The notes below the pieces were generated by a model. It was not told where the DNA came from. It searched no databases and saw nothing but the letters and a program-made list of their open reading frames with translations. A stretch of DNA of 32,000 nt from Candidatus Saccharimonadota bacterium (GTDB lineage: Bacteria > Pseudomonadota > Gammaproteobacteria > Enterobacterales > Enterobacteriaceae), in contig NZ_CP010048.1 in assembly GCF_000973505.1 (NCBI RefSeq), positions 420,001 through 452,000 of the forward strand, read 5' to 3'. This document shows positions 22,622 through 31,453 of this stretch, piece after piece (positions within the stretch are counted from its first letter, which is position 1; each line of letters starts with the position of its first letter). A program made the position numbers and the translations under genes.

Positions 22622-23044
22622 TAATTTTCATTAAAATTTTAATCAAAATACCTAAATAACAAAATATCACAGATAAACATAACGATATCTACAATATTTA
22701 AAATATATTATATAATATTCTGGTATTTAAAATAGATGATCGATACAATATCAATATATTATTATTAGGTTAATAGTCTAATTTAAGAATAAAAATATGT
22801 ACAATAACCAAGATAATACAATTATTTCATGATTTTATTTTTAAAATTATTAAAAATTGTGTAATAAAAAATATGTGTAATTTTTAATGTCAACATTTAA
22901 AAATTATATTTTTAATCTAATTCAGAAACTCATTCAAATATTCTTATGTCTTTAATTACATAATATTACCTGTACATAAATATTTGAATTTAACTAAAAT
23001 ATTTAATAAAATACTTTTTATAACAATATTATTAATATTTAATT

Positions 23045-24001
23045 ATGTCAAACATAAAACATTCTCAAATCATCATATTAGGTTCAGGACCAGCAGGATA
23101 TACTGCAGCTATTTATTCTGCCCGTGCTAACTTACACCCAATACTTATTACTGGAACAGAATATGGAGGACAATTAATTAAAACTAATCAAATAGAAAAT
23201 TGGCCCGGTGATCCCGATCAACTCGCTGGTCCCAAACTTATGGAAAGAATGAATATTCATGCAAAAAAATTCAATACAAATATCATCGTAGATAATATTA
23301 CTAATGTAAATTTAAATAGTCAACCATTTTACCTGGCCAGTGATTATCATAAATACACCTGCGATTCATTAATTATTTGTACCGGTGCCTCTGCAAAACA
23401 TATGGGATTACATTCAGAAACACAATATCAAGGAAAAGGTGTATCCTATTGTGCCACATGTGATGGTTTTTTTTATAAAGATAAAAAAGTAGCTATTATC
23501 GGAGGAGGTAATACTGCAATAGAAGAAGCATTATATCTCACTAACATTGCTGCTGAAACACATTTAATCCATCGTCGCAATACTTTTACAGCAGAAAAAA
23601 TACTAATTGATCGATTAATGACTGCAGTAGAAAAAAATAATATTATATTACATTGTCCTTTCACACTTATTGAAATATTAGGTAATACAAATTACGTTAC
23701 AGCTATAAATATAAAACACAATATTACACATCAATATACACAATTAAAAGTTGATGGTGTGTTCATTGCTATTGGTTACAAACCAAATACAACTATATTT
23801 TCTAATCAACTTTTACTAAAAGATGGATATATTTGCACAACAAACACAAAAAATGAACAAACAGCAACATCTATTCCTGGTATATTTGCTGCAGGAGATG
23901 TTATGGATCAATATTATAAACAAGCAATTACCGCTGCTAGCTCTGGTTGTATGGCCGCGATAGATGCAGAACGTTATTTATCTAAAATAAAAAACAAATA
24001 A
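23045..24001 (+). CDS. trxB: Thioredoxin reductase
   Basis: Has an FAD GxGxxG motif ([14 protein letters not shown]), the redox-active CATCDG, an NADPH-site GGGNTA.EEALYL and a C-terminal AAGDV.D..Y.QAIT.A..GCMAA.DAERYL. Confidence 0.96.
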
Positions 24002-24288
24002 CAAAATAAATTTACTGATATAATAAACAATCCAATGAAAATTTCACTATGTTATATTACATATATATCTATACTAACAATTAACAAACAAATGAAAAAA
24101 CTGCTACGTAATGATCACAAATTTAATAAAAATACAACACATAAATAAAAAAACATACAAACTATATTTTTAACATAGTGTTAAAAAAAATTTATAATTT
24201 TTAGTGAACATTTTATGTAACATTGTAATACATAATTATTTTATACTCATAATATTAACAACAAAAATATAACTATTAGGTAACACTA

Positions 24289-24507
24289 ATGACAAAAGAG
24301 GATCATATCGAAATGCATGGTACTGTGCTAGACACGCTTCCAAATACTATGTTTCGAGTCAAATTAGAAAATGGACATATTATCACAGCACATATCTCAG
24401 GAAAAATGAGGAAAAATTACATTCGTATTTTAACAGGCGATAACGTTGTAGTTGAGCTAACTCCTTATGATTTGAATAAAGGCCGAATTATTTTTCGAAA
24501 CCGTTAA
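24289..24507 (+). CDS. infA: Translation initiation factor IF-1
   Basis: The 72-aa product reads [26 protein letters not shown]...[34 protein letters not shown], essentially the E. coli InfA sequence. Confidence 0.98.
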
Positions 24508-24914
24508 CATAACACAACACACTAAAAATTATAATAAAAAATAATTATTACTCTTTACTCACATATATAAAACACCTTACACATTATAAAATTTCAGATT
24601 TGAACTGCAAATTTAACTATACAATAATAATAACATATAATTAATTTAGGACCAACATCCTTCGCATACTACTTATGTATGTATACTAAAACAATAAACA
24701 ATATGTAAGTTACAACAAACATATAACCAAAACAAAATGACACCCAAAAAAAATTAATTTTGTTAATTGTCAACCACATTCTATCTATATTTCATGACAT
24801 ACTTTTTGTAACTTTTATGAACCATAAACATCCGCTCAACACTTTATTTGATCAAATTTTAAAACTGACTAACTCTCAAAAAATCTAAAATCAATAATCA
24901 TATTAACATTTAAT

Positions 24915-24936
24915 TTATCCAATGCTGATTGGATAA
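24915..24936. repeat. Perfect 9-bp inverted repeat with a 4-nt loop (ttatccaat gctg attggataa)
   Basis: Read directly in the ORF-free spacer downstream of infA. No flanking T-run exists on either strand, so it is not a canonical intrinsic terminator. Confidence 0.7.
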
Positions 24937-25400
24937 CACATGTATTAAAACATCAATCATCACATCATTGAATTATACTACTTGTTCAACAAAAATAACC
25001 AATCGTATCTTCAAAAATAGATATCGATAGTTTATCTGAATTATATATTCTAACCTCTAACTATTATAAAACTACGAACCTTTATCATATAATTACAAAA
25101 CATAGTGCACCTTGTAAAATATACCATCTTTCCAAAATAATCACTCCTCATAAAACTATTTAAAGATCCTTAATGATACTGAAAAATTACATATTTCTCA
25201 AAAAACATAAGCACTAAAAAATTCATATAACAACAACAAACACTAAACATTTACTTATTACCATCTAATATACCAAATATACCACCACATTCCTTAAAAA
25301 AACTAAATCAATATTTATCCCTAATTACAAATAAACAAAAACCTAAAAAATATTTCAAAGTATCAATACCATCACTAAAAATATGAGCTAAATAAACACA

Positions 25401-25517
25401 TTAAAAAAATAACTCATAAGAAAAAAAATCACGAGCTTTAGTCACAGTAATCATTTTAAACTCAGCATTATTCATTAATTTTAGCAATATTCTTACAATA
25501 ATTACTTTCGTATAAAT
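25401..25517 (-). pseudogene. clpS: Possible clpS remnant (ClpA adaptor) with an in-frame stop
   Basis: The minus-strand reading IYTKVIIVRILLKLMNNAEFKMITVTKARDFFSYELFF*CVYLAHIFSDG aligns, with a few gaps, to the E. coli ClpS core [43 protein letters not shown] (Y.KVI.V, EF, V, K, FFSY[DE], LA.H). The location fits E. coli synteny, where clpA-clpS follows infA on the opposite strand. Confidence 0.4.
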
Positions 25518-25963
25518 ACACTAACTAATATATGACATTTAACGAATCTGACATAACTCAAAAAATACAAAAAATAAAAAAACATACAATTTTTATCAAA
25601 AAATATTTAAACAAAATTTTCAACTTATAGATAAAAATAACAACATAACTTTAAAAAATATCAACCCTCACATTATGTAAAAATTAAAATAATTGATACA
25701 AAAACAATAATTACAAAGAATGATTCTTCAAATTTTCTATAAAAAAATACATTATCTATCTATGATACTATACTATGATATGAACTTATAAAATAAAACA
25801 TATAAGAAAAATTCCAAAATATCATTTTTTATGCTATCTTTACATTACAATATTCTCCAAATATCTAAATAGTTAATGATTCATAAACATACATAAAAAA
25901 ATATAATATACATATTAATAAAACCATCCTTTAGTCAGTATAATTATATTAGGATTATTTATA

Positions 25964-26653
25964 ATGAAATATATCATCCATTCTACTATTATATTTGATA
26001 CCACAGAATATCTTCTAACACCCCTAACCGACAATAATCAATCAATTAAACTTTCCAATTCTGCAGGACGTATATTAGAAGAACTAATAAAGTATCAAAA
26101 TACCGATGAACCAATTACCCGAGAATATTTATTTTCTACAATATGGAGACAACACGGACTAGAACCATCACACGGAAATTTAAATCAACAAATCAGTTTA
26201 ATCAGAAAAAGCTTAGGATCATTTGGAATTAGTCCTACATCAATTATCACCATTCCTAAACGAGGATTAAAATTAAATAAAGAAATATCAATAGAAATCA
26301 CAGATAAAAAAACATCTGTTATCCCATCTGCAACAATTTCAGCTAACAACAAAAGAACATTTAATAAAACGCCATTTTTCTCAAGTCCGGCAATATTAAA
26401 AAGCAATCCAAGATATGCTATTATTTTACTCATATTAATAATTACAGTACTAAGCATCAGTATAATATATATGTATATCAAAGATAAAAATCTTAAAAAA
26501 TTACATTTGTGTAAACAAATAAATTCATGTAATATTTGTACTTTTCATCAAACACCAAATTTAGAATGTAATGATCTCACATTTAAAAACTCTGAGAATA
26601 CACAAAAAAATAACGAAGACTATAACAAAAAATACACTGAAATACAATTTTAA
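25964..26653 (+). CDS. ToxR/CadC-like membrane-anchored transcriptional regulator: N-terminal OmpR/PhoB-type winged helix, single TM, short Cys-rich periplasmic tail
   Basis: Residues about 5-105 (IIFDTTEYLLTP.....IKLSNSAGRILEELIK.....ITREYLFSTIWRQHGLEPSHGNLNQQISLIRKSL.......IITIPKRGLKL) are collinear with V. cholerae ToxR (FTFDPLSNTL...IRLGSNESRILWLL.....ISRNDLHDFVWREQGFEVDDSSLTQAISTLRKML....YVKTVPKRGYQL). A hydrophobic TM lies at residues about 151-172 (YAIILLILIITVLSISIIYMYI). The 57-aa tail carries 4 Cys (HLC, NSC, NIC, LEC). Confidence 0.8.
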   Translation: MKYIIHSTIIFDTTEYLLTPLTDNNQSIKLSNSAGRILEELIKYQNTDEPITREYLFSTIWRQHGLEPSHGNLNQQISLIRKSLGSFGISPTSIITIPKRGLKLNKEISIEITDKKTSVIPSATISANNKRTFNKTPFFSSPAILKSNPRYAIILLILIITVLSISIIYMYIKDKNLKKLHLCKQINSCNICTFHQTPNLECNDLTFKNSENTQKNNEDYNKKYTEIQF

Positions 26654-27181
26654 CACCGTTAAAAATTTTTTAAACGCACCAATACACACAATAACAAATA
26701 AAAATTATTTCTTTAAACATCGTTATCATGAAAAATATAAAAAATATATGTACTATTTTCATTGAAAGTTTTAATTTTTATACCTGTGATACACAGTATA
26801 TTTTAAAAAATATATATAAAATTTTAATACATAAAAAAATCCACACACTAAACAAACTAATATTCAATTATAAACATATATATCAATATCAAAAAAAATA
26901 TTTTTCATACTCGTTCCAATAATTAAGTGTAACTACAAAAACACTAAATTTCATTTAATGAACACAATATAAAAACTCAAATTTCTGTAAATATTTATAA
27001 AAAACTACAAAATTAACAACAAAAATGATTTTATTTAACTTTTAGTAAAGCATTAAAAAATGACAAACACAATAATTATTCAAAATCTAACCAAAAATTT
27101 AAAACAATTATTTTTTAATAATCATTCATCTCTGAAAAATGAACAATATATTAATAATCACAATCTAACAATAAATATCCT

Positions 27182-27556
27182 ATGAAGAAGCATAATACTA
27201 TATTTGAACAAATCATTCAAAAAAAAACTGCCACACAACTACTATATCAAGACAATCTAGTTAGTGCATTTTATGACATTCATCCACAAGCACCAATACA
27301 TGTCTTAATTGTGCCAAACATACCAATCCCTACAGTGAATGACATAACACCTTATCATGAAAAAACTATAGGAAGATTATTCACAGTTGCAGCTAAAATT
27401 GCTGTAAAATTAAAAATAAACGAATCGGGTTATCGATTGATAGTAAACTGTAATAATGATGCAGGACAAGAAATTTACCATTTACATATGCACCTTCTAG
27501 GAGGTAAAACACTTGGACCATTAATTTCTAACAGTACTATAACAAACTTAATGTAA
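27182..27556 (+). CDS. hinT: HIT-family purine nucleoside phosphoramidase HinT
   Basis: IF..II......Q.LYQD.LV.AF.DI.PQAP.H.LI.PN..IPTVND....HE...GR...VAAKIA......GYRLI.N.N...GQE.YH.HMHLLGG..LGP includes the HIT motif HxHxHLL. It is collinear with E. coli HinT. Confidence 0.92.
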   Translation: MKKHNTIFEQIIQKKTATQLLYQDNLVSAFYDIHPQAPIHVLIVPNIPIPTVNDITPYHEKTIGRLFTVAAKIAVKLKINESGYRLIVNCNNDAGQEIYHLHMHLLGGKTLGPLISNSTITNLM

Positions 27557-27698
27557 AAAATATGCTATATTTATAAATCCAATACACATAATCAAATGAC
27601 ATAAAAACTATCTGTGCTATACGATTAATAATCATACAACTAATACTGATGGTAATTGATTTTACTAAAATAAATCGTACGTTATACACAACTAATTA

Positions 27699-28282
27699 AT
27701 GAAAAAAAAAATATTTTTTTAATTATATTATCTTTCATATATAATCAGATAGGTTTCAGTGAAAAAATTCTACAAACAGAAACATCAATATTTAATAATC
27801 AGATAAATTTTCAAACAAAGGCAGTTAACACAATACCTACTCCACCAAAAATCCACATCATTATAGATTGGCGAAAACACTTTCTCTTACACATACAGGA
27901 AATAATTACATTTATTACAAAAACTCAACATAAAAACAAGATCATTGCATTATTCATCAACAAAATTGAAAATTACTCTGATTATCCTCTAAATATTCAA
28001 CAAACTACAAATAATTTGAAAAATTTACTACACGAATTAAATAATAATAACAATTTTATAATCATTAATTCATATATTTCATGTGAAATATATGAAAATA
28101 TAAAATTATTAAACAAAAACCTAACACCCCGCAGTACAAGTATTAAATTAGCAAGACATATGAATGCTGAGTATATACTATATAGTACTGCATACAATGA
28201 CACAAAAAACATAAATATAAAATTAGAATTAATATCAGCAAAAAATGGCGAAATAATGTGGTCAAAAATTACTAATACCTAA
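27699..28282 (+). CDS. lpoB: LpoB-like (PBP1b activator) gene, frame-interrupted at the A10 tract. It is either rescued by slippage or an early-stage pseudogene.
   Basis: The frame is open from 27674 to 28282, but its first canonical start is TTG 28016. Upstream of that TTG the same frame reads ...IHIIIDWRKHFLLHIQEIITFITKTQHKNKIIALFINKIENYSDYPLNIQQTTNNLKNLLHEL.., collinear with E. coli LpoB HIRHYDWNGAMQPMVSKML....GSVLLVDSVNNRTNG.LN...ATE.LRNAL. The C-terminus PRSTSIKLARHMNAEYILYSTAY......IKLELISAKNGEIIWS-type region matches GTRSKAIGIARNVGAHYVLYSSA....LQMQLMLVQTGEIIWS. It sits after hinT as in E. coli. Confidence 0.6.
27702..27711 (+). repeat. A10 homopolymer separating the lpoB ATG from its conserved reading frame
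   Basis: ATG 27699-27701 is followed by ten A residues (27702-27711). As written, it reads MKKKIFF* with a TAA at 27720-27722. The long conserved frame is offset by one nucleotide. Confidence 0.9.
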
Positions 28283-28300
28283 TTAAAAATATTTAACAAT

Positions 28301-29509
28301 ATGTATCAACCTTTTATAATATGCATTGGATTGCGTTATATTTTTAAGAAAAAATTTTATCAATTGGAACAATTCACTGCTTACACTTCTATACTTGCTA
28401 TTACACTTGGTGTAACAGCATTGATAGTTACATTATCAATTATGAACGGAGTTGAACAAAAATTAGAGCAAAAAATACTTAACATCGTACCTCATGTATT
28501 ATTAACCTCACAAACACAAAACATTAACCCTGAAAACAATAAAAAATATTTTTTAAAAAACCTACGTGGTATAACACAAGCAAATACCATAGTAAATTTT
28601 GACGGAATATTACAAAGCTCTAACAATATCTCTTTTGGAAAAATAATTGGCATTAATCCTACAGATTATGAACCATTGTCTCGTTTTATGATTTATGGAT
28701 CTACAAAACAATTAATACCTAACAAATACTATGTAATTATCAGCGCAACATTAGCCCAACATTTAAAAGTACAAATAGGAGATAATATTCGCATAATATT
28801 ACCTAATATAACAAAAATTACCCCTATAGGACGTATTCCTACACAAAGACTATTCCAAATAATAGGAATTTATATCACTAACACTAATGTTGACGATTAC
28901 CAATTACTAATTAATCAAGAAGATGGAGCACATTTACTGCATCTTCCAACTACACATATCACAAACTGGAGATTATGGTTAAAAGAACCATTAAAAATAA
29001 ACTCTTTTAATAAACAAAAATTACCTAAAAATGTTATTTTCAAAACAGACTGGAGAGAGTATCAAGGTAATACTTTTAAAGCAATTCAAATGGAAAAAAA
29101 CATGATGGGGCTCCTATTAAGTTCAATTATACTAATATCAGGTATCAATATACTCACTTACTCTTCTTTATTAATTACAGAAAAAAAACAAGAAATTGCT
29201 ATTTTAAAAACATATGGGTTAAATACAAAAAAAATTATATTATTATTTAGCATACAAGGAACTTGTATTGGTGGAATGGGTACAATATTTGGTATTTTAT
29301 GTGGATACCTTATAACAAAAAACATAAATTGGATAACAGCTATGTGCAACTTATTAAATAATGAAGAAATATTACCTGTTCAAATTAAAACATCTCAAAT
29401 CACCGTAATTACCATTATAACAATATTAATATCTTGCTTATCCACATTATATTCAGCAAAAACTGCAACAAACATTAATGTAATCGAGACACTACAACAA
29501 AATGAATAA
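28301..29509 (+). CDS. lolC: Lipoprotein-release ABC transporter permease LolC
   Basis: The N-terminus [13 protein letters not shown] matches E. coli [36 protein letters not shown]...[16 protein letters not shown] and LSTLYS...A....  are collinear. Confidence 0.93.
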
Positions 29510-30182
29510 TTCAATATTACTACAATCGCACCAACTTAGTAAAACTTATCAAGACGCGAATTTTTTTATTCAAGTATTAAAAAACATCAACTTTACTGTA
29601 CAAACAGGAGAAATGATCACTATTATTGGACATTCGGGCTCAGGTAAAAGCACGTTATTACATTTACTGGGAGGATTAGACACACCTACGCACGGTAAAG
29701 TCATTTTTAATGGACAAATATTACATCAAATATCTGAAAAAACACGTGCATTAATACGCAACCAACAATTAGGTTTTATTTATCAATTTCACCATTTATT
29801 GTCTGATTTTAACACACTAGAAAACATAGCAATGCCTCTTATGATTCAGGGGAAAAAATTCAAACATGCAAAAATAATAGCAAAAAAAATGTTAAAATTG
29901 GTAAACTTACACCATAGAGACGATCACTATCCATATGAATTATCAGGAGGAGAACGTCAAAGAGTAGCTATCGCACGTGCGTTAGTAAATAAACCAATAT
30001 TAGTCTTAGCTGATGAACCTACTGGTAATTTAGACAAAAAAACAGCAAACAACATTTTCCAATTATTACATACAATAAATATAAATTATGGAACTACATT
30101 TTTAGTAGTAACACATGATATATGCTCTAACACATACTTTAACAGAACATTAGAACTATGTCATGGAGAATTAAAACCATAA
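29502..30182 (+). CDS. lolD: Lipoprotein-release ABC transporter ATPase LolD
   Basis: Carries Walker [11 protein letters not shown]-loop/LolD motif region [20 protein letters not shown], signature [15 protein letters not shown] and Walker [14 protein letters not shown]. It overlaps the lolC end by 8 nt. Confidence 0.96.
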
Positions 30183-30208
30183 AATAAAAAAATGAATAAA
30201 ACATAAAT

Positions 30209-31453
30209 ATGCAAACGATATTACTTTCACTATATCTTGCTTGGCGATTGTATCGCAATCCTAAAAAAAATAAAACAATATCTTTTATATCTATTGTATC
30301 CATTATTGGAAATGCATCAAGTATAGCTATTTTAATTATTTGTTTAAGTGCAATAAATGGATTTAAAAATGAACTTAATGAACGAATTTTTTCAATTATT
30401 CCTCATGGAAATATCCAATCAACAAATTCAACATTTTCTGATTGGAACATAATACTAAATAAAATTAAAAACATTCCGGGTATCGTACAAAGCGTTCCAT
30501 ATGTTGATTTATCAGGATTAATAGAAAAAAACAATAAATTTCACCCAATTCAAATTCATGGAATTAGTACACTACATAACATGCACCCTAATATCATTTC
30601 CTATCTTTCATCAATAAACACCATTCCAAACTTTGTCCCAAATAAGCAAATAATTATATTAGGACAAGGCGTTGCTAACACTTTAAATATTAAAAAAAAC
30701 GATTGGATTAATATTATAATTCATAACACTGACGGAAATAATAAGCTACTTCCCTATAAATTCATAAACGCACACGTTATTGACATACTAAATTTAAAAA
30801 GTTATCTAGATAATAACATTGCTATCATTCCATTATCAGACGCACAAAATTATTTAAATAAACAGAAATATATTTCTGGTATCAACATTAAAATAAACAA
30901 TATTTTTCATATTAATAAATTATTAAAGCAAATTATAAACACCATTAAGAATGATCATATTATTACTCAAAGTTGGATCAATACATATAAATATATGTAC
31001 CAAGATATCCACATAATAGAAACAATCATATATTTAACAATGACACTAGTCATATGTATCGCATGTTTTGGAATTGTATCTATATTAACTTTGATTATAA
31101 AAGAAAAAAATCACGATATAGCTATTTTGAATACACTAGGTTGTAAAAATAAATTAATTTACTCTACTTTTATCTGGTGCGGCTTATTACATAGCTTAAT
31201 AAGCATTGCAATAGGAACCACTAGTGGAACATTGATTGCATTATATTTAACCAAAATATACTTTTTGATAGAAAATTTATTTGACTACAAAATATTATCT
31301 CATAATGTTTACTTTATTAATTTTTTACCTACTGAAGTACATACAAAAGACATAATTTCTATTATAACCATAAACTTATTACTAAGCTTTCTAGCCACTT
31401 TATACCCTATAATAAAAACAAATTACAGCAATCCCGGTGCAATATTAAAATAA
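30209..31453 (+). CDS. lolE: Lipoprotein-release ABC transporter permease LolE
   Basis: IPHG.I, IILG.GVA..L.IKK.DW..I.I, IPL.DAQ.YL, SGI.IK....F..NKL, SWI.TY.YMY.DI and FI.FLP.E.H.... are collinear with E. coli LolE. The lolCDE order is conserved. Confidence 0.93.
   Translation: MQTILLSLYLAWRLYRNPKKNKTISFISIVSIIGNASSIAILIICLSAINGFKNELNERIFSIIPHGNIQSTNSTFSDWNIILNKIKNIPGIVQSVPYVDLSGLIEKNNKFHPIQIHGISTLHNMHPNIISYLSSINTIPNFVPNKQIIILGQGVANTLNIKKNDWINIIIHNTDGNNKLLPYKFINAHVIDILNLKSYLDNNIAIIPLSDAQNYLNKQKYISGINIKINNIFHINKLLKQIINTIKNDHIITQSWINTYKYMYQDIHIIETIIYLTMTLVICIACFGIVSILTLIIKEKNHDIAILNTLGCKNKLIYSTFIWCGLLHSLISIAIGTTSGTLIALYLTKIYFLIENLFDYKILSHNVYFINFLPTEVHTKDIISIITINLLLSFLATLYPIIKTNYSNPGAILK

What the first reader, a model, noticed from the sequence alone, without database searches (positions are those of the whole stretch)
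25964..26653. ToxR/CadC-like one-component transmembrane regulator isolated between large ORF-free spacers
The N-terminal 100 residues align motif-for-motif with the ToxR winged-helix domain (F.FD, L...RIL..L, .R..L....W...G.E.....L.Q.IS..RK.L, T.PKRG..L). A single strong TM helix follows, then a 57-aa extracytoplasmic tail with four cysteines. ToxR-family periplasmic domains use Cys pairs as redox/fold sensors.

Environment-sensing membrane regulators are unexpected in a genome that has shed lrp, clpAS, cmk and other genes in this same window. No ToxS/TcpH-like partner ORF is evident downstream; the two 64-aa ORFs there lack TM character. The gene has no E. coli synteny counterpart here. It is flanked by about 1.45 kb and about 0.53 kb of ORF-free AT-rich DNA. 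The regulon is unknown, and the non-syntenic surface protein at 5664-7604 is one conceivable target.
Basis: partly seen in the sequence, partly recalled or inferred. Interest (0 to 1): 0.7.

Follow-up and report, generated by a model that had tools for sequence, protein, structure and literature searches.

The report
Truncated ToxR-like membrane regulator (yqeI)
This is a real membrane-anchored ToxR-type DNA-binding regulator, but it is the already annotated yqeI gene found in all Blochmannia ant symbionts, and it has lost its partner gene, most of its outer sensor domain and, in this genome, its neighbouring copper-receptor gene.

Summary
Window 25964-26653 (+) encodes a 229-aa protein with three parts:
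- an N-terminal ToxR-type winged helix (Pfam PF00486 above its cutoff; ToxR in PDB E 3e-11; Foldseek TM 0.89);
- one strong transmembrane helix (residues 151-172);
- a 57-aa tail with four cysteines.

It is not an unexpected orphan. The window is Blochmannia of Polyrhachis turneri. The gene is listed as yqeI in that genome's 2015 ortholog table, and its B. floridanus ortholog Bfl390 was described in 2006. Every Blochmannia homolog recovered is intact, as are those of Wigglesworthia and the Sodalis clade.

Three things appear to be new:
- Free-living relatives carry a two-gene yqeI-like/fidL-like cassette of the VtrA/VtrC "co-component" type. Blochmannia lost the fidL partner and the last ~60 residues of the periplasmic domain.
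- The remaining beta-hairpin stub is conserved and regained a four-cysteine complement.
- The 1.45-kb upstream spacer is where the oprC copper-receptor gene was deleted. The 0.53-kb downstream spacer is an inversion junction.

The most likely function is a largely signal-blind, membrane-tethered transcription factor. Its targets are unknown. Interest is modest.

The parts
25964..26653 (+). yqeI-like CDS, 229 aa plus stop. It encodes a membrane-anchored ToxR-family regulator.
   Evidence: The ORF is. It is 100% identical to P0001, a wHTH domain-containing protein of the Blochmannia endosymbiont of Polyrhachis turneri. The published ortholog table lists it as yqeI. The N-terminus MKYII... is conserved from the first residue in all orthologs and in ToxR.
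25964..26302 (+). [quoted passage not shown]
   Evidence: PF00486 scores 30.1 bits against a cutoff of 26.2. Model pLDDT is above 90. Foldseek gives ToxR 8b4b at TM 0.89. Counterparts of ToxR DNA-contact residues Gln78, Pro101 and Lys102 are Q75, P98 and K99, all invariant in 59 homologs. ToxR Thr77 corresponds to an invariant Asn74. Mean identity among six Blochmannia is 69% with dN 0.20, tighter than trxB.
26303..26413 (+). Disordered juxtamembrane linker, residues 114-150.
   Evidence: Model pLDDT is below 50. Identity among Blochmannia is 22% with dN 0.81, close to neutral.
26414..26479 (+). Single transmembrane helix, residues 151-172.
   Evidence: The Kyte-Doolittle 19-residue maximum is 2.92. 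AlphaFold2 shows a helix at 149-177 with pLDDT around 91-94.
26480..26650 (+). Periplasmic stub, residues 173-229. It is the remnant beta-hairpin of the ancestral sensor domain plus a lineage-specific low-complexity tail.
   Evidence: The alignment with ~270-aa relatives shows the last ~60 residues missing in all Blochmannia. The full-length Sodalis model gives a b-b-a-b-b-b periplasmic fold, of which only the first hairpin and part of the helix are retained. Stub residues 173-205 are 55% identical among Blochmannia with dN 0.33. The model gives no confident fold here, with pLDDT below 50.
26510..26569 (+). Four-cysteine cluster: Cys183, Cys189, Cys192 and Cys202.
   Evidence: C189 is universal (36/36 Blochmannia, 23/23 full-length). 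C192 is in 36/36 Blochmannia, against Tyr in 23/23 full-length proteins. C183 is in 35/36, against Phe/Leu/Met. C182 is in 33/36. The three sequences lacking C182, this one included, all have C202.
24508..25963 (.). Upstream ORF-free spacer. This is the site where the divergently transcribed oprC-like TonB-dependent copper-receptor gene was deleted.
   Evidence: Four Camponotus Blochmannia have infA, then a Plug/TonB_dep_Rec gene on the minus strand, then yqeI on the plus strand. Sodalis sp. Psp has trxB, the same receptor and yqeI, without infA between them. The receptor matches TIGR01778 TonB-copper. The ortholog table lists oprC in only one of its three columns. No protein-level or DNA-level remnant is detectable here.
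26654..27181 (.). Downstream ORF-free spacer, an inversion junction. No fidL remnant is present.
   Evidence: In Camponotus Blochmannia and B. obliquus, yqeI is followed by emtA (SLT). Here it is followed by hinT-lpoB-lolCDE, so the emtA-to-hinT block is inverted relative to Camponotus Blochmannia. A FidL profile and a profile of the C-terminal domain find nothing. The two 64-aa ORFs have no Pfam hit on record.
25915..25954 (+). Candidate promoter (TTAATA, 18 nt, TATAAT, at 25915-25944) and Shine-Dalgarno AGGA (25951-25954, 9 nt before the ATG).
   Evidence: The consensus scan is, but such sites are at chance frequency in this AT-rich DNA (27 found, 28.2 expected). This is a weak, inferred feature.
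26784..26806 (+). Terminator-like hairpin followed by a T-rich tail, ~130 nt after the stop codon.
   Evidence: It is the only terminator-like site in 24400-27300, against 0.1 expected. Its function was not tested.

Best explanation
The gene is the Blochmannia ortholog of yqeI (Bfl390). It encodes a ToxR-family transcription factor held in the inner membrane by one TM helix, with its winged-helix domain in the cytoplasm.

Its ancestor, still seen in free-living Sodalis, Acerihabitans and Biostraticola, was the DNA-binding half of a two-gene "co-component" sensor of the YqeI/YqeJ, MarT/FidL and VtrA/VtrC kind. In such systems the factor's periplasmic b2-a-b3 domain docks a FidL-like lipocalin encoded just downstream.

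In the Blochmannia lineage the fidL gene was lost. The factor's periplasmic domain was also cut back to its first beta-hairpin, which removed the partner-docking strands and three of four cysteines. The hairpin stub then acquired new cysteines. They most likely staple it by disulfides, since dsbA and dsbB are retained.

What remains is most likely a largely signal-blind, at most redox-sensitive, membrane-tethered DNA-binding protein that recognises AT-rich DNA as ToxR does and controls a few promoters.

An oprC-like copper-receptor gene sits divergently next to it in Camponotus Blochmannia and Sodalis sp. Psp. That gene is gone from this genome, which leaves the 1.45-kb spacer. The function that keeps the regulator under selection here must therefore involve other, unidentified targets.

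Shown: identity, architecture, truncation, partner loss, neighbour loss, purifying selection. Inferred: DNA binding in vivo, disulfide stapling, signal blindness, regulatory role.
For: **Identity and fold.** ToxR DNA-contact residues are conserved: Q75, P98 and K99 are invariant in 59 homologs, and the ToxR contacts come from PMC10629549.

**Family.** BLASTP of the window protein against E. coli YqeI gives E 5e-14 over the wHTH and TM. hhalign of the family profile against YqeI gives 98.8% probability over 247 columns, with all four periplasmic cysteines aligned. YqeI/YqeJ, MarT/FidL and GrvA/FidL are described as VtrA/VtrC-like co-component systems in PMC9214523.

**Partner.** A gene homologous to the Acerihabitans FidL-like protein (which itself matches Pfam PF15941) abuts or overlaps the regulator in 11 free-living or recently host-associated relatives. 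It is absent from Blochmannia, Wigglesworthia and Sodalis sp. Psp. Sodalis sp. Psp keeps a stop-riddled remnant.

**Truncation.** The alignment is and the full-length model.

**Cysteine turnover.** dsbA and dsbB are listed for B. turneri.

**Selection.** The wHTH has dN 0.20 and 69% identity. The stub has dN 0.33 and 55% identity. The linker has dN 0.81. trxB has dN 0.265, and lolA and ftsK are 38-39% identical. The ORF is intact in all 36 Blochmannia-type sequences.

**Neighbour.** Parallel loss of oprC and tonB is reported in PMC4389277.
Against: - There are no expression, DNA-binding or regulon data for any member of this clade.
- The 200 bp upstream of the gene show no conserved block in six Blochmannia.
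- The ToxR-box consensus occurs at chance frequency, so no operator could be defined.
- The stub is not predicted to fold (pLDDT below 50), so disulfide stapling is conjecture.
- The stub is clearly conserved, which could mean it still senses something. That would argue against "signal-blind".
- Wigglesworthia and Sodalis sp. Psp lost fidL but kept the full periplasmic domain. Partner loss therefore does not by itself force truncation.
Confidence: 0.7

Rival explanations
1. The Cys-bearing tail is a working minimal periplasmic sensor of redox state or of a metal such as copper. The protein is then a true one-component signal transducer that adjusts transcription to conditions in the bacteriocyte.
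For: The stub is under purifying selection (55% identity, dN 0.33, against 0.81 for the linker). Three Blochmannia-specific cysteines are nearly fixed, and a complement of four is kept even when positions differ. The ancestral neighbour is a TonB-dependent copper receptor. Periplasmic disulfides are conserved in most factors of the co-component family (PMC9214523), and from general knowledge they modulate ToxR and CadC activity.
Against: The folded sensor domain and the ligand-binding partner are gone. The stub has no predicted structure. Cysteine number ranges from 3 to 7 among Blochmannia. Gaining cysteines is equally explained by the need to pair the orphaned C189 in a DsbA-containing periplasm.
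Confidence: 0.2
2. The protein is the dedicated regulator of the adjacent oprC copper-receptor gene.
For: The divergent oprC/yqeI arrangement is shared by four Camponotus Blochmannia and Sodalis sp. Psp. Biostraticola has the receptor ~1.4 kb upstream.
Against: B. turneri and B. obliquus lack oprC yet keep an intact gene. Turneri retains every family-invariant residue and shows no greater divergence from the other Blochmannia than its trxB does. Wigglesworthia keeps the gene between pgpA and rpoD with no receptor nearby. None of the free-living Sodalis or Acerihabitans loci held shows a receptor within the 6-8 kb flanks.
Confidence: 0.12
3. The protein activates the inverse-autotransporter surface protein at 5664-7604. 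This would parallel MarT/FidL activating the MisL autotransporter and GrvA/FidL promoting LEE (intimin)-dependent adherence.
For: ORF 5664-7604 carries an IAT_beta domain (PF11924, 94.6 bits) and resembles YchO, SinH and invasin. Relatives of this regulator family control adhesins according to PMC9214523.
Against: The two genes are 18 kb apart. The longest word shared by the two upstream regions is 13 nt, and 44 of 300 shuffles reach that length. The distribution of the autotransporter in other symbionts could not be established.
Confidence: 0.08
4. The ORF is a non-functional relic that merely happens to remain open.
For: The partner, half of the sensor domain and the neighbouring gene have all been lost. 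The gene sits between eroded spacers. The C-terminal 24 residues are lineage-specific low-complexity sequence.
Against: A 243-codon open frame in DNA of about 24% G+C is far beyond chance. The gene is intact in 36 Blochmannia lineages of a symbiosis dated at ~40 My (PMC4389277). The wHTH evolves more slowly than trxB.
Confidence: 0.05

Closest known systems
E. coli YqeI/YqeJ, Salmonella MarT/FidL and EHEC GrvA/FidL: VtrA/VtrC-like co-component signal transduction systems (Kinch et al. 2022, PMC9214523)
   Same: The wHTH and TM architecture is homologous. BLASTP against YqeI gives E 5e-14. The profile of full-length relatives aligns end to end with YqeI, including four periplasmic cysteines. 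Free-living relatives have an abutting FidL-like gene downstream.
   Different: Identity to YqeI is only 25%. The Blochmannia protein lacks the three C-terminal strands that carry the conserved disulfide and dock the partner. No fidL gene is present. New cysteines sit in the retained hairpin. It is not associated with a T3SS or pathogenicity island.
Vibrio cholerae ToxR (with ToxS)
   Same: ToxR is the best structural and PDB sequence match for the DNA-binding domain (33% identity, TM 0.89). Counterparts of Gln78, Pro101 and Lys102 are conserved. It has the same N-in, single-TM, C-out layout.
   Different: ToxR has a folded ~100-aa periplasmic domain and needs ToxS. Here only a ~35-aa conserved stub remains and there is no partner. 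ToxR Thr77 is replaced by an invariant Asn, so base preference probably differs.
B. floridanus Bfl390 (yqeI) and the yqeI genes of other Blochmannia and of Wigglesworthia
   Same: These are direct orthologs at 42-58% identity. The gene occupies the same position after trxB-infA in all six Blochmannia loci examined. Bfl390 was already described as Trans_reg_C plus one TM.
   Different: In this genome the oprC neighbour is deleted and the downstream block is inverted. C182 is replaced by Leu, with C202 present. There is a ~20-aa low-complexity C-terminal extension. Wigglesworthia keeps the full-length periplasmic domain.
E. coli CadC
   Same: Both have a membrane-bound wHTH. CadC is the fourth PDB hit (5ju7) and gives a weak NCBIfam hit.
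   Different: The CadC model (NF007540) is 516 positions long and the window protein matches only positions 42-130, the wHTH region. The NCBIfam score is 20 bits against a cutoff of 400.

Membership tests
OmpR/PhoB-type winged-helix DNA-binding domain (Pfam PF00486 Trans_reg_C) | HMM score at or above the Pfam gathering threshold | tested here: met
   30.1 bits against 26.2, residues 26-102.
OmpR/PhoB-type winged-helix DNA-binding domain (Pfam PF00486 Trans_reg_C) | N-terminal beta-sheet, three-helix bundle and beta-hairpin wing fold | tested here: met
   The AlphaFold2 model has pLDDT above 90 for residues 1-113 with strands and helices in the expected order. Foldseek hits ToxR, CadC, PhoB and OmpR domains.
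ToxR-like membrane-bound transcription factors | N-terminal cytoplasmic wHTH followed by a single TM helix | tested here: met
   There is one hydrophobic segment, 151-172, with KD 2.92. The model shows a helix at 149-177.
ToxR-like membrane-bound transcription factors | Folded C-terminal periplasmic sensor domain (b2-a-b3 core) | tested here: not met
   Only the first hairpin and part of the helix are retained. The ~60 C-terminal residues are absent and the stub has pLDDT below 50.
ToxR-like membrane-bound transcription factors | C-terminus located in the periplasm | not testable with these tools
   This is inferred from homology to YqeI and ToxR. The flanking charges are ambiguous, with 2 K/R before the TM and 4 after it.
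VtrA/VtrC-like co-component systems (YqeI/YqeJ, MarT/FidL, GrvA/FidL) | Transcription-factor component homologous to YqeI, MarT or GrvA | tested here: met
   BLASTP against E. coli YqeI gives E 5e-14. hhalign of the family profile against YqeI gives 98.8% probability over 247 columns.
VtrA/VtrC-like co-component systems (YqeI/YqeJ, MarT/FidL, GrvA/FidL) | Adjacent gene for a membrane-anchored lipocalin-like partner (FidL, YqeJ or VtrC) | tested here: not met
   No FidL-like sequence lies downstream in the window or in five other Blochmannia loci. It is present in 11 Sodalis-clade relatives.
VtrA/VtrC-like co-component systems (YqeI/YqeJ, MarT/FidL, GrvA/FidL) | Conserved disulfide between the last two periplasmic beta-strands, and a C-terminal edge strand that docks the partner | tested here: not met
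   That region is deleted in all Blochmannia. Three of the four ancestral cysteines are gone.
VtrA/VtrC-like co-component systems (YqeI/YqeJ, MarT/FidL, GrvA/FidL) | Heterodimer formation and ligand-dependent activation | not testable with these tools
   This needs biochemistry.
CadC (lysine decarboxylation activator) | NCBIfam NF007540 equivalog score, which requires the full 516-position CadC model | tested here: not met
   20.4 bits against a cutoff of 400. Only the wHTH region matches.

The most novel reading that the evidence does not exclude
The Blochmannia-specific four-cysteine hairpin (C-x5/6-C-x2-C, plus C182 or C202) is a newly evolved minimal periplasmic sensor. It would have replaced the lost FidL-dependent domain and would read redox state or copper/zinc in the bacteriocyte. 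That would make this the smallest known ToxR-type signal transducer and one of the few signal-responsive regulators left in an obligate endosymbiont. It might control envelope or surface genes such as the inverse autotransporter at 5664-7604.
Probability: 0.12. Interest if true: 0.6.

Novelty: new variant of a known kind. Interest (0 to 1): 0.3.

Why it matters
Obligate insect endosymbionts keep very few transcription factors. A regulator maintained in Blochmannia, whose symbiosis is dated at ~40 My (PMC4389277), and also in Wigglesworthia, is a candidate for controlling something important to the symbiosis.

This analysis shows that the protein is the stripped-down DNA-binding half of a two-gene sensor cassette otherwise known from enteric virulence regulation. 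That gives a concrete evolutionary picture of how a sensing system decays: partner first, then sensor domain, then neighbouring gene, while the DNA-binding module persists.

It also suggests tractable experiments, namely DAP-seq with a 113-residue domain and cysteine chemistry on a ~35-residue peptide.

The gene itself is already annotated and published, so the finding is an incremental refinement and not a discovery.

Tried and rejected
1. **oprC remnants in the 1.45-kb spacer.** I ran tblastn with the B. floridanus and Sodalis receptors, a five-sequence receptor HMM against six-frame translations and blastn with word size 7. They returned only chance or AT-rich noise. The deletion scar is inferred from synteny alone.
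2. **fidL or C-terminal-domain remnants downstream of Blochmannia yqeI genes.** None were found. Only Sodalis sp. Psp shows a decayed fidL (E 0.0011, with stops).
3. **Conserved operator or promoter.** The MAFFT alignment of the 200 bp upstream in six Blochmannia is 53% identical with no conserved block. The sigma-70 scan is at chance (27 found, 28.2 expected). The ToxR box TNAAA-N5-TNAAA occurs 24 times against 22.5 expected.
4. **Motif shared with the region upstream of the inverse autotransporter.** The longest shared word is 13 nt, reached by 44 of 300 shuffles. Repeats in the locus are only low-complexity AT pairs.
5. **Structured RNAs in 24000-27300.** There were no Rfam hits at E up to 1.
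6. **Distribution of the inverse autotransporter.** The word-indexed search returned only the protein itself, so this was uninformative.
7. **Names for the nearest outgroup.** The closest non-Sodalis relatives (Serratia, Rahnella, Pantoea, Erwinia, Leminorella) carry only generic wHTH or 'CadC' labels. No characterised close relative exists.
8. **Literature on expression.** I found no paper in the held library reporting expression or function of yqeI in Blochmannia, Wigglesworthia or Sodalis. A search for Blochmannia Dsb literature was also empty. The presence of dsbA and dsbB came from the ortholog table.
9. **CadC membership.** Rejected on score and length.
Full report
**What is in the sequence**

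Window 25964-26653 (+) is an intact 229-codon ORF. The open frame is 243 codons from stop to stop. Shuffles of the surrounding 2.7 kb give a mean longest ORF of 71 codons and never exceed 157 in 500 trials.

Residues 26-102 match Pfam Trans_reg_C above the gathering score, at 30.1 against 26.2 bits. Residues 1-106 align with the crystallised cytoplasmic domain of V. cholerae ToxR at E 3e-11.

An AlphaFold2 model built on 59 homologs is very confident for residues 1-113 (pLDDT above 90). It also shows a long helix at 149-177. Its best structural matches are ToxR bound to DNA (8b4b, TM 0.89, 33% identity), then CadC and TcpP.

A single hydrophobic segment, residues 151-172, has a Kyte-Doolittle 19-residue mean of 2.92. 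The 56-57-residue tail holds Cys183, 189, 192 and 202.

**Where it comes from**

The protein is 100% identical to a GenBank entry from the Blochmannia endosymbiont of Polyrhachis (Hedomyrma) turneri.

Orthologs of 197-229 aa and 42-58% identity were recovered for B. floridanus, B. vafer, B. ocreatus, B. vicinus, the Colobopsis symbionts and many unnamed contigs. Homologs of 265-291 aa occur in Wigglesworthia (where the gene is named yqeI), in Sodalis-allied symbionts, and in free-living Sodalis, Acerihabitans and Biostraticola.

The ortholog table of the paper that published this genome lists "trxB / infA / oprC / yqeI / ...". yqeI is present in B. obliquus, B. turneri and the Camponotus symbionts (PMC4389277). 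The B. floridanus ortholog Bfl390 was described in 2006 as a Trans_reg_C domain followed by one TM helix (PMC1360075). The gene and its basic architecture are therefore already known.

**Family placement**

E. coli K-12 YqeI matches the window protein at 25% identity and E 5e-14 across the wHTH and TM. A profile of the full-length relatives aligns with YqeI over 247 columns at 98.8% probability. All four periplasmic cysteines are in register.

An exhaustive HMMER search found 2739 cluster representatives at E up to 1e-3. There is a clear gap between the Sodalis/Blochmannia/Wigglesworthia clade (at least 282 bits for the full-length members) and the next hits (170 bits or less). Those next hits are unnamed wHTH proteins of Serratia, Rahnella, Pantoea, Erwinia and Leminorella.

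Kinch et al. 2022 (PMC9214523) place YqeI/YqeJ, MarT/FidL and GrvA/FidL with VtrA/VtrC and ToxR/ToxS as "co-component" systems. In these, a membrane-tethered wHTH factor has a periplasmic b2-a-b3 domain. Its C-terminal edge strand docks a lipocalin-like partner encoded by the next gene, and a conserved disulfide links the last two strands.

**The partner exists in relatives and was lost here**

In 11 Sodalis-clade loci a 155-aa gene follows the regulator directly, often overlapping its stop codon. The Acerihabitans protein matches Pfam FidL_like, and the others were identified by homology to it.

No such gene is present in Blochmannia, Wigglesworthia or Sodalis sp. Psp. A FidL profile finds nothing in the Blochmannia downstream spacers. 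It does pick up a stop-riddled remnant in Sodalis sp. Psp (E 0.0011).

**The sensor domain is truncated**

All Blochmannia proteins end about 60 residues before their ~270-aa relatives. A model of the full-length Sodalis sp. Psp protein gives a periplasmic b(180-185)-b(188-192)-a(198-212)-b(222-230)-b(242-251)-b(257-266) fold at pLDDT ~70-86. This matches the published core.

Blochmannia keep only the first hairpin and at most part of the helix. The three strands that carry the conserved disulfide and form the partner interface are gone. No trace of them lies beyond the stop codons. In the window protein the stub is not predicted to fold on its own (pLDDT below 50).

**The stub is nevertheless conserved and has remodelled cysteines**

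| Region or gene | Mean identity among six Blochmannia | dN |
|---|---|---|
| wHTH (1-110) | 69% | 0.20 |
| Linker (111-150) | 22% | 0.81 |
| TM (151-172) | 39% | 0.56 |
| Stub (173-205) | 55% | 0.33 |
| trxB | 66% | 0.265 |
| lolA | 38% | 0.57 |
| ftsK | 39% | 0.46 |

Across 36 Blochmannia-type and 23 full-length sequences:
- The ancestral Cys189 is universal.
- Cys192 replaces an invariant Tyr in 36 of 36 Blochmannia.
- Cys183 replaces Phe, Leu or Met in 35 of 36.
- Cys182 replaces Phe in 33 of 36.
- The three sequences without Cys182 (this one and the two Colobopsis symbionts) all have Cys202.
- Four tail cysteines is the commonest count in both groups: 23 of 36 truncated and 22 of 23 full-length.

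Three cysteines were therefore lost with the deletion and about three were regained nearby. dsbA and dsbB are listed for B. turneri. The simplest reading is that the new residues pair the orphaned Cys189 and staple the hairpin. That is inference, and a sensory or metal-binding role is not excluded.

**The DNA-binding module looks competent**

In the ToxR-DNA structures, Thr77 and Gln78 of the recognition helix and Pro101 and Lys102 of the wing make the key contacts (PMC10629549).

In the alignment these correspond to Asn74, Gln75, Pro98 and Lys99 of the window protein. All four positions are invariant in 59 homologs. The loop between helices 2 and 3 (W61...G65-L66-x-P-S69-x-G71-N72) corresponds to the ToxR transactivation loop and is the most conserved stretch of the family.

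**The spacers**

In four Camponotus Blochmannia the order is trxB, infA, a ~720-aa Plug/TonB-dependent receptor on the minus strand, then yqeI on the plus strand. Sodalis sp. Psp has lrp, trxB, the same receptor and yqeI. Biostraticola has the receptor 1.4 kb upstream of yqeI-fidL.

The receptor matches the TonB-dependent copper receptor model TIGR01778. The Sodalis copy scores 685 bits, above the 472 cutoff. The B. floridanus copy scores 449, just below it. It is called oprC in the published table.

B. obliquus has only 590 bp and B. turneri 1456 bp where the Camponotus symbionts have ~2.7 kb. The 2015 paper reports that oprC and tonB were lost in parallel in several lineages. The upstream spacer is thus what remains after oprC decayed beyond recognition.

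Downstream, Camponotus Blochmannia have emtA next to yqeI. The window has hinT-lpoB-lolCDE, so the emtA-to-hinT block is inverted and mntR is missing. The 528-bp spacer is therefore an inversion junction. The two 64-aa ORFs have no Pfam hit on record.

**What it probably does**

The evidence supports a membrane-tethered ToxR-type DNA-binding protein under purifying selection. It has lost the apparatus by which its relatives sense ligands. I therefore favour a constitutive, or at most disulfide-dependent, activator or anti-silencer.

The only contextual candidate for an ancestral target is oprC. However, the regulator is retained intact where oprC is gone (this genome and B. obliquus), and it sits in an unrelated context in Wigglesworthia. 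Other targets must therefore exist.

The inverse autotransporter at 5664-7604 (IAT_beta, 94.6 bits) is an attractive guess, because MarT and GrvA control adhesins. I found no supporting motif and could not trace its distribution. No operator, promoter or RNA element could be defined in this AT-rich DNA.

**Verdict**

I found no mention of the following three points in the papers I searched:
- its origin from a YqeI/FidL-type co-component cassette;
- the Blochmannia-wide loss of the partner and the docking half of the sensor domain;
- the compensatory cysteine gains.

This makes it a degenerate variant of a known system, of modest interest until a target or a signal is shown.

Noticed in passing
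window 5664-7604 (+): This is a 646-aa inverse autotransporter (intimin/invasin type). It matches Pfam IAT_beta at 94.6 bits and shows weak YchO, SinH and Inv similarity. It is annotated in GenBank as a 627-aa 'inverse autotransporter beta domain-containing protein'. A surface adhesin-type protein is notable in an obligate intracellular symbiont. The homolog search returned only the protein itself.
   Followed up: partly
window 28016-28282 (+): The LpoB-like ORF is only 88 aa here, against 188 aa in B. floridanus at L002:18204-18770. It may be truncated or mis-started.
   Followed up: no
window 22622-23044: The 423-bp gap between ftsK and trxB has no lrp. Sodalis sp. Psp has an AsnC/Lrp-type gene at this position, L005:2115-2609. 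None of the six Blochmannia loci examined has a gene called there.
   Followed up: partly
window 27182-31453 and L001:7270-15915: The block hinT-lpoB-lolC-lolD-lolE-purB-mnmA-emtA is inverted as a whole relative to Camponotus Blochmannia. B. obliquus differs again in the order of purB and mnmA. The 2015 paper reports inversions in eight genomic regions, and this block appears rearranged in its ortholog table.
   Followed up: partly
L001:14243-15267 (outside the window), compared with L023:10498-10968, L025:10662-11126 and L026:9788-10252: A MntR-like (Fe_dep_repress) regulator gene lies next to emtA in B. obliquus, a Camponotus symbiont and B. ocreatus. No such gene is called in B. turneri, where a ~1-kb gap remains, or in B. 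floridanus and B. vafer.
   Followed up: no
L005:8817-10689 (Sodalis sp. Psp): A 1.9-kb gene-free stretch downstream of yqeI contains a decayed fidL. The profile hit has E 0.0011 and in-frame stops. This catches partner loss in progress while the regulator keeps its full periplasmic domain.
   Followed up: partly
whole window: GC skew is negative in every 1-kb bin, from -0.05 to -0.56, and AT skew is positive throughout. The extreme is in the yqeI upstream spacer at 25001-26000, with GC 0.20 and GC skew -0.56. This probably reflects strand-specific mutational bias.
   Followed up: no
window 27060-27185 (+): A 41-aa ORF overlaps the hinT start codon (ATGA) and was called as a gene in one assembly. 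It has no family hit and is probably spurious.
   Followed up: no
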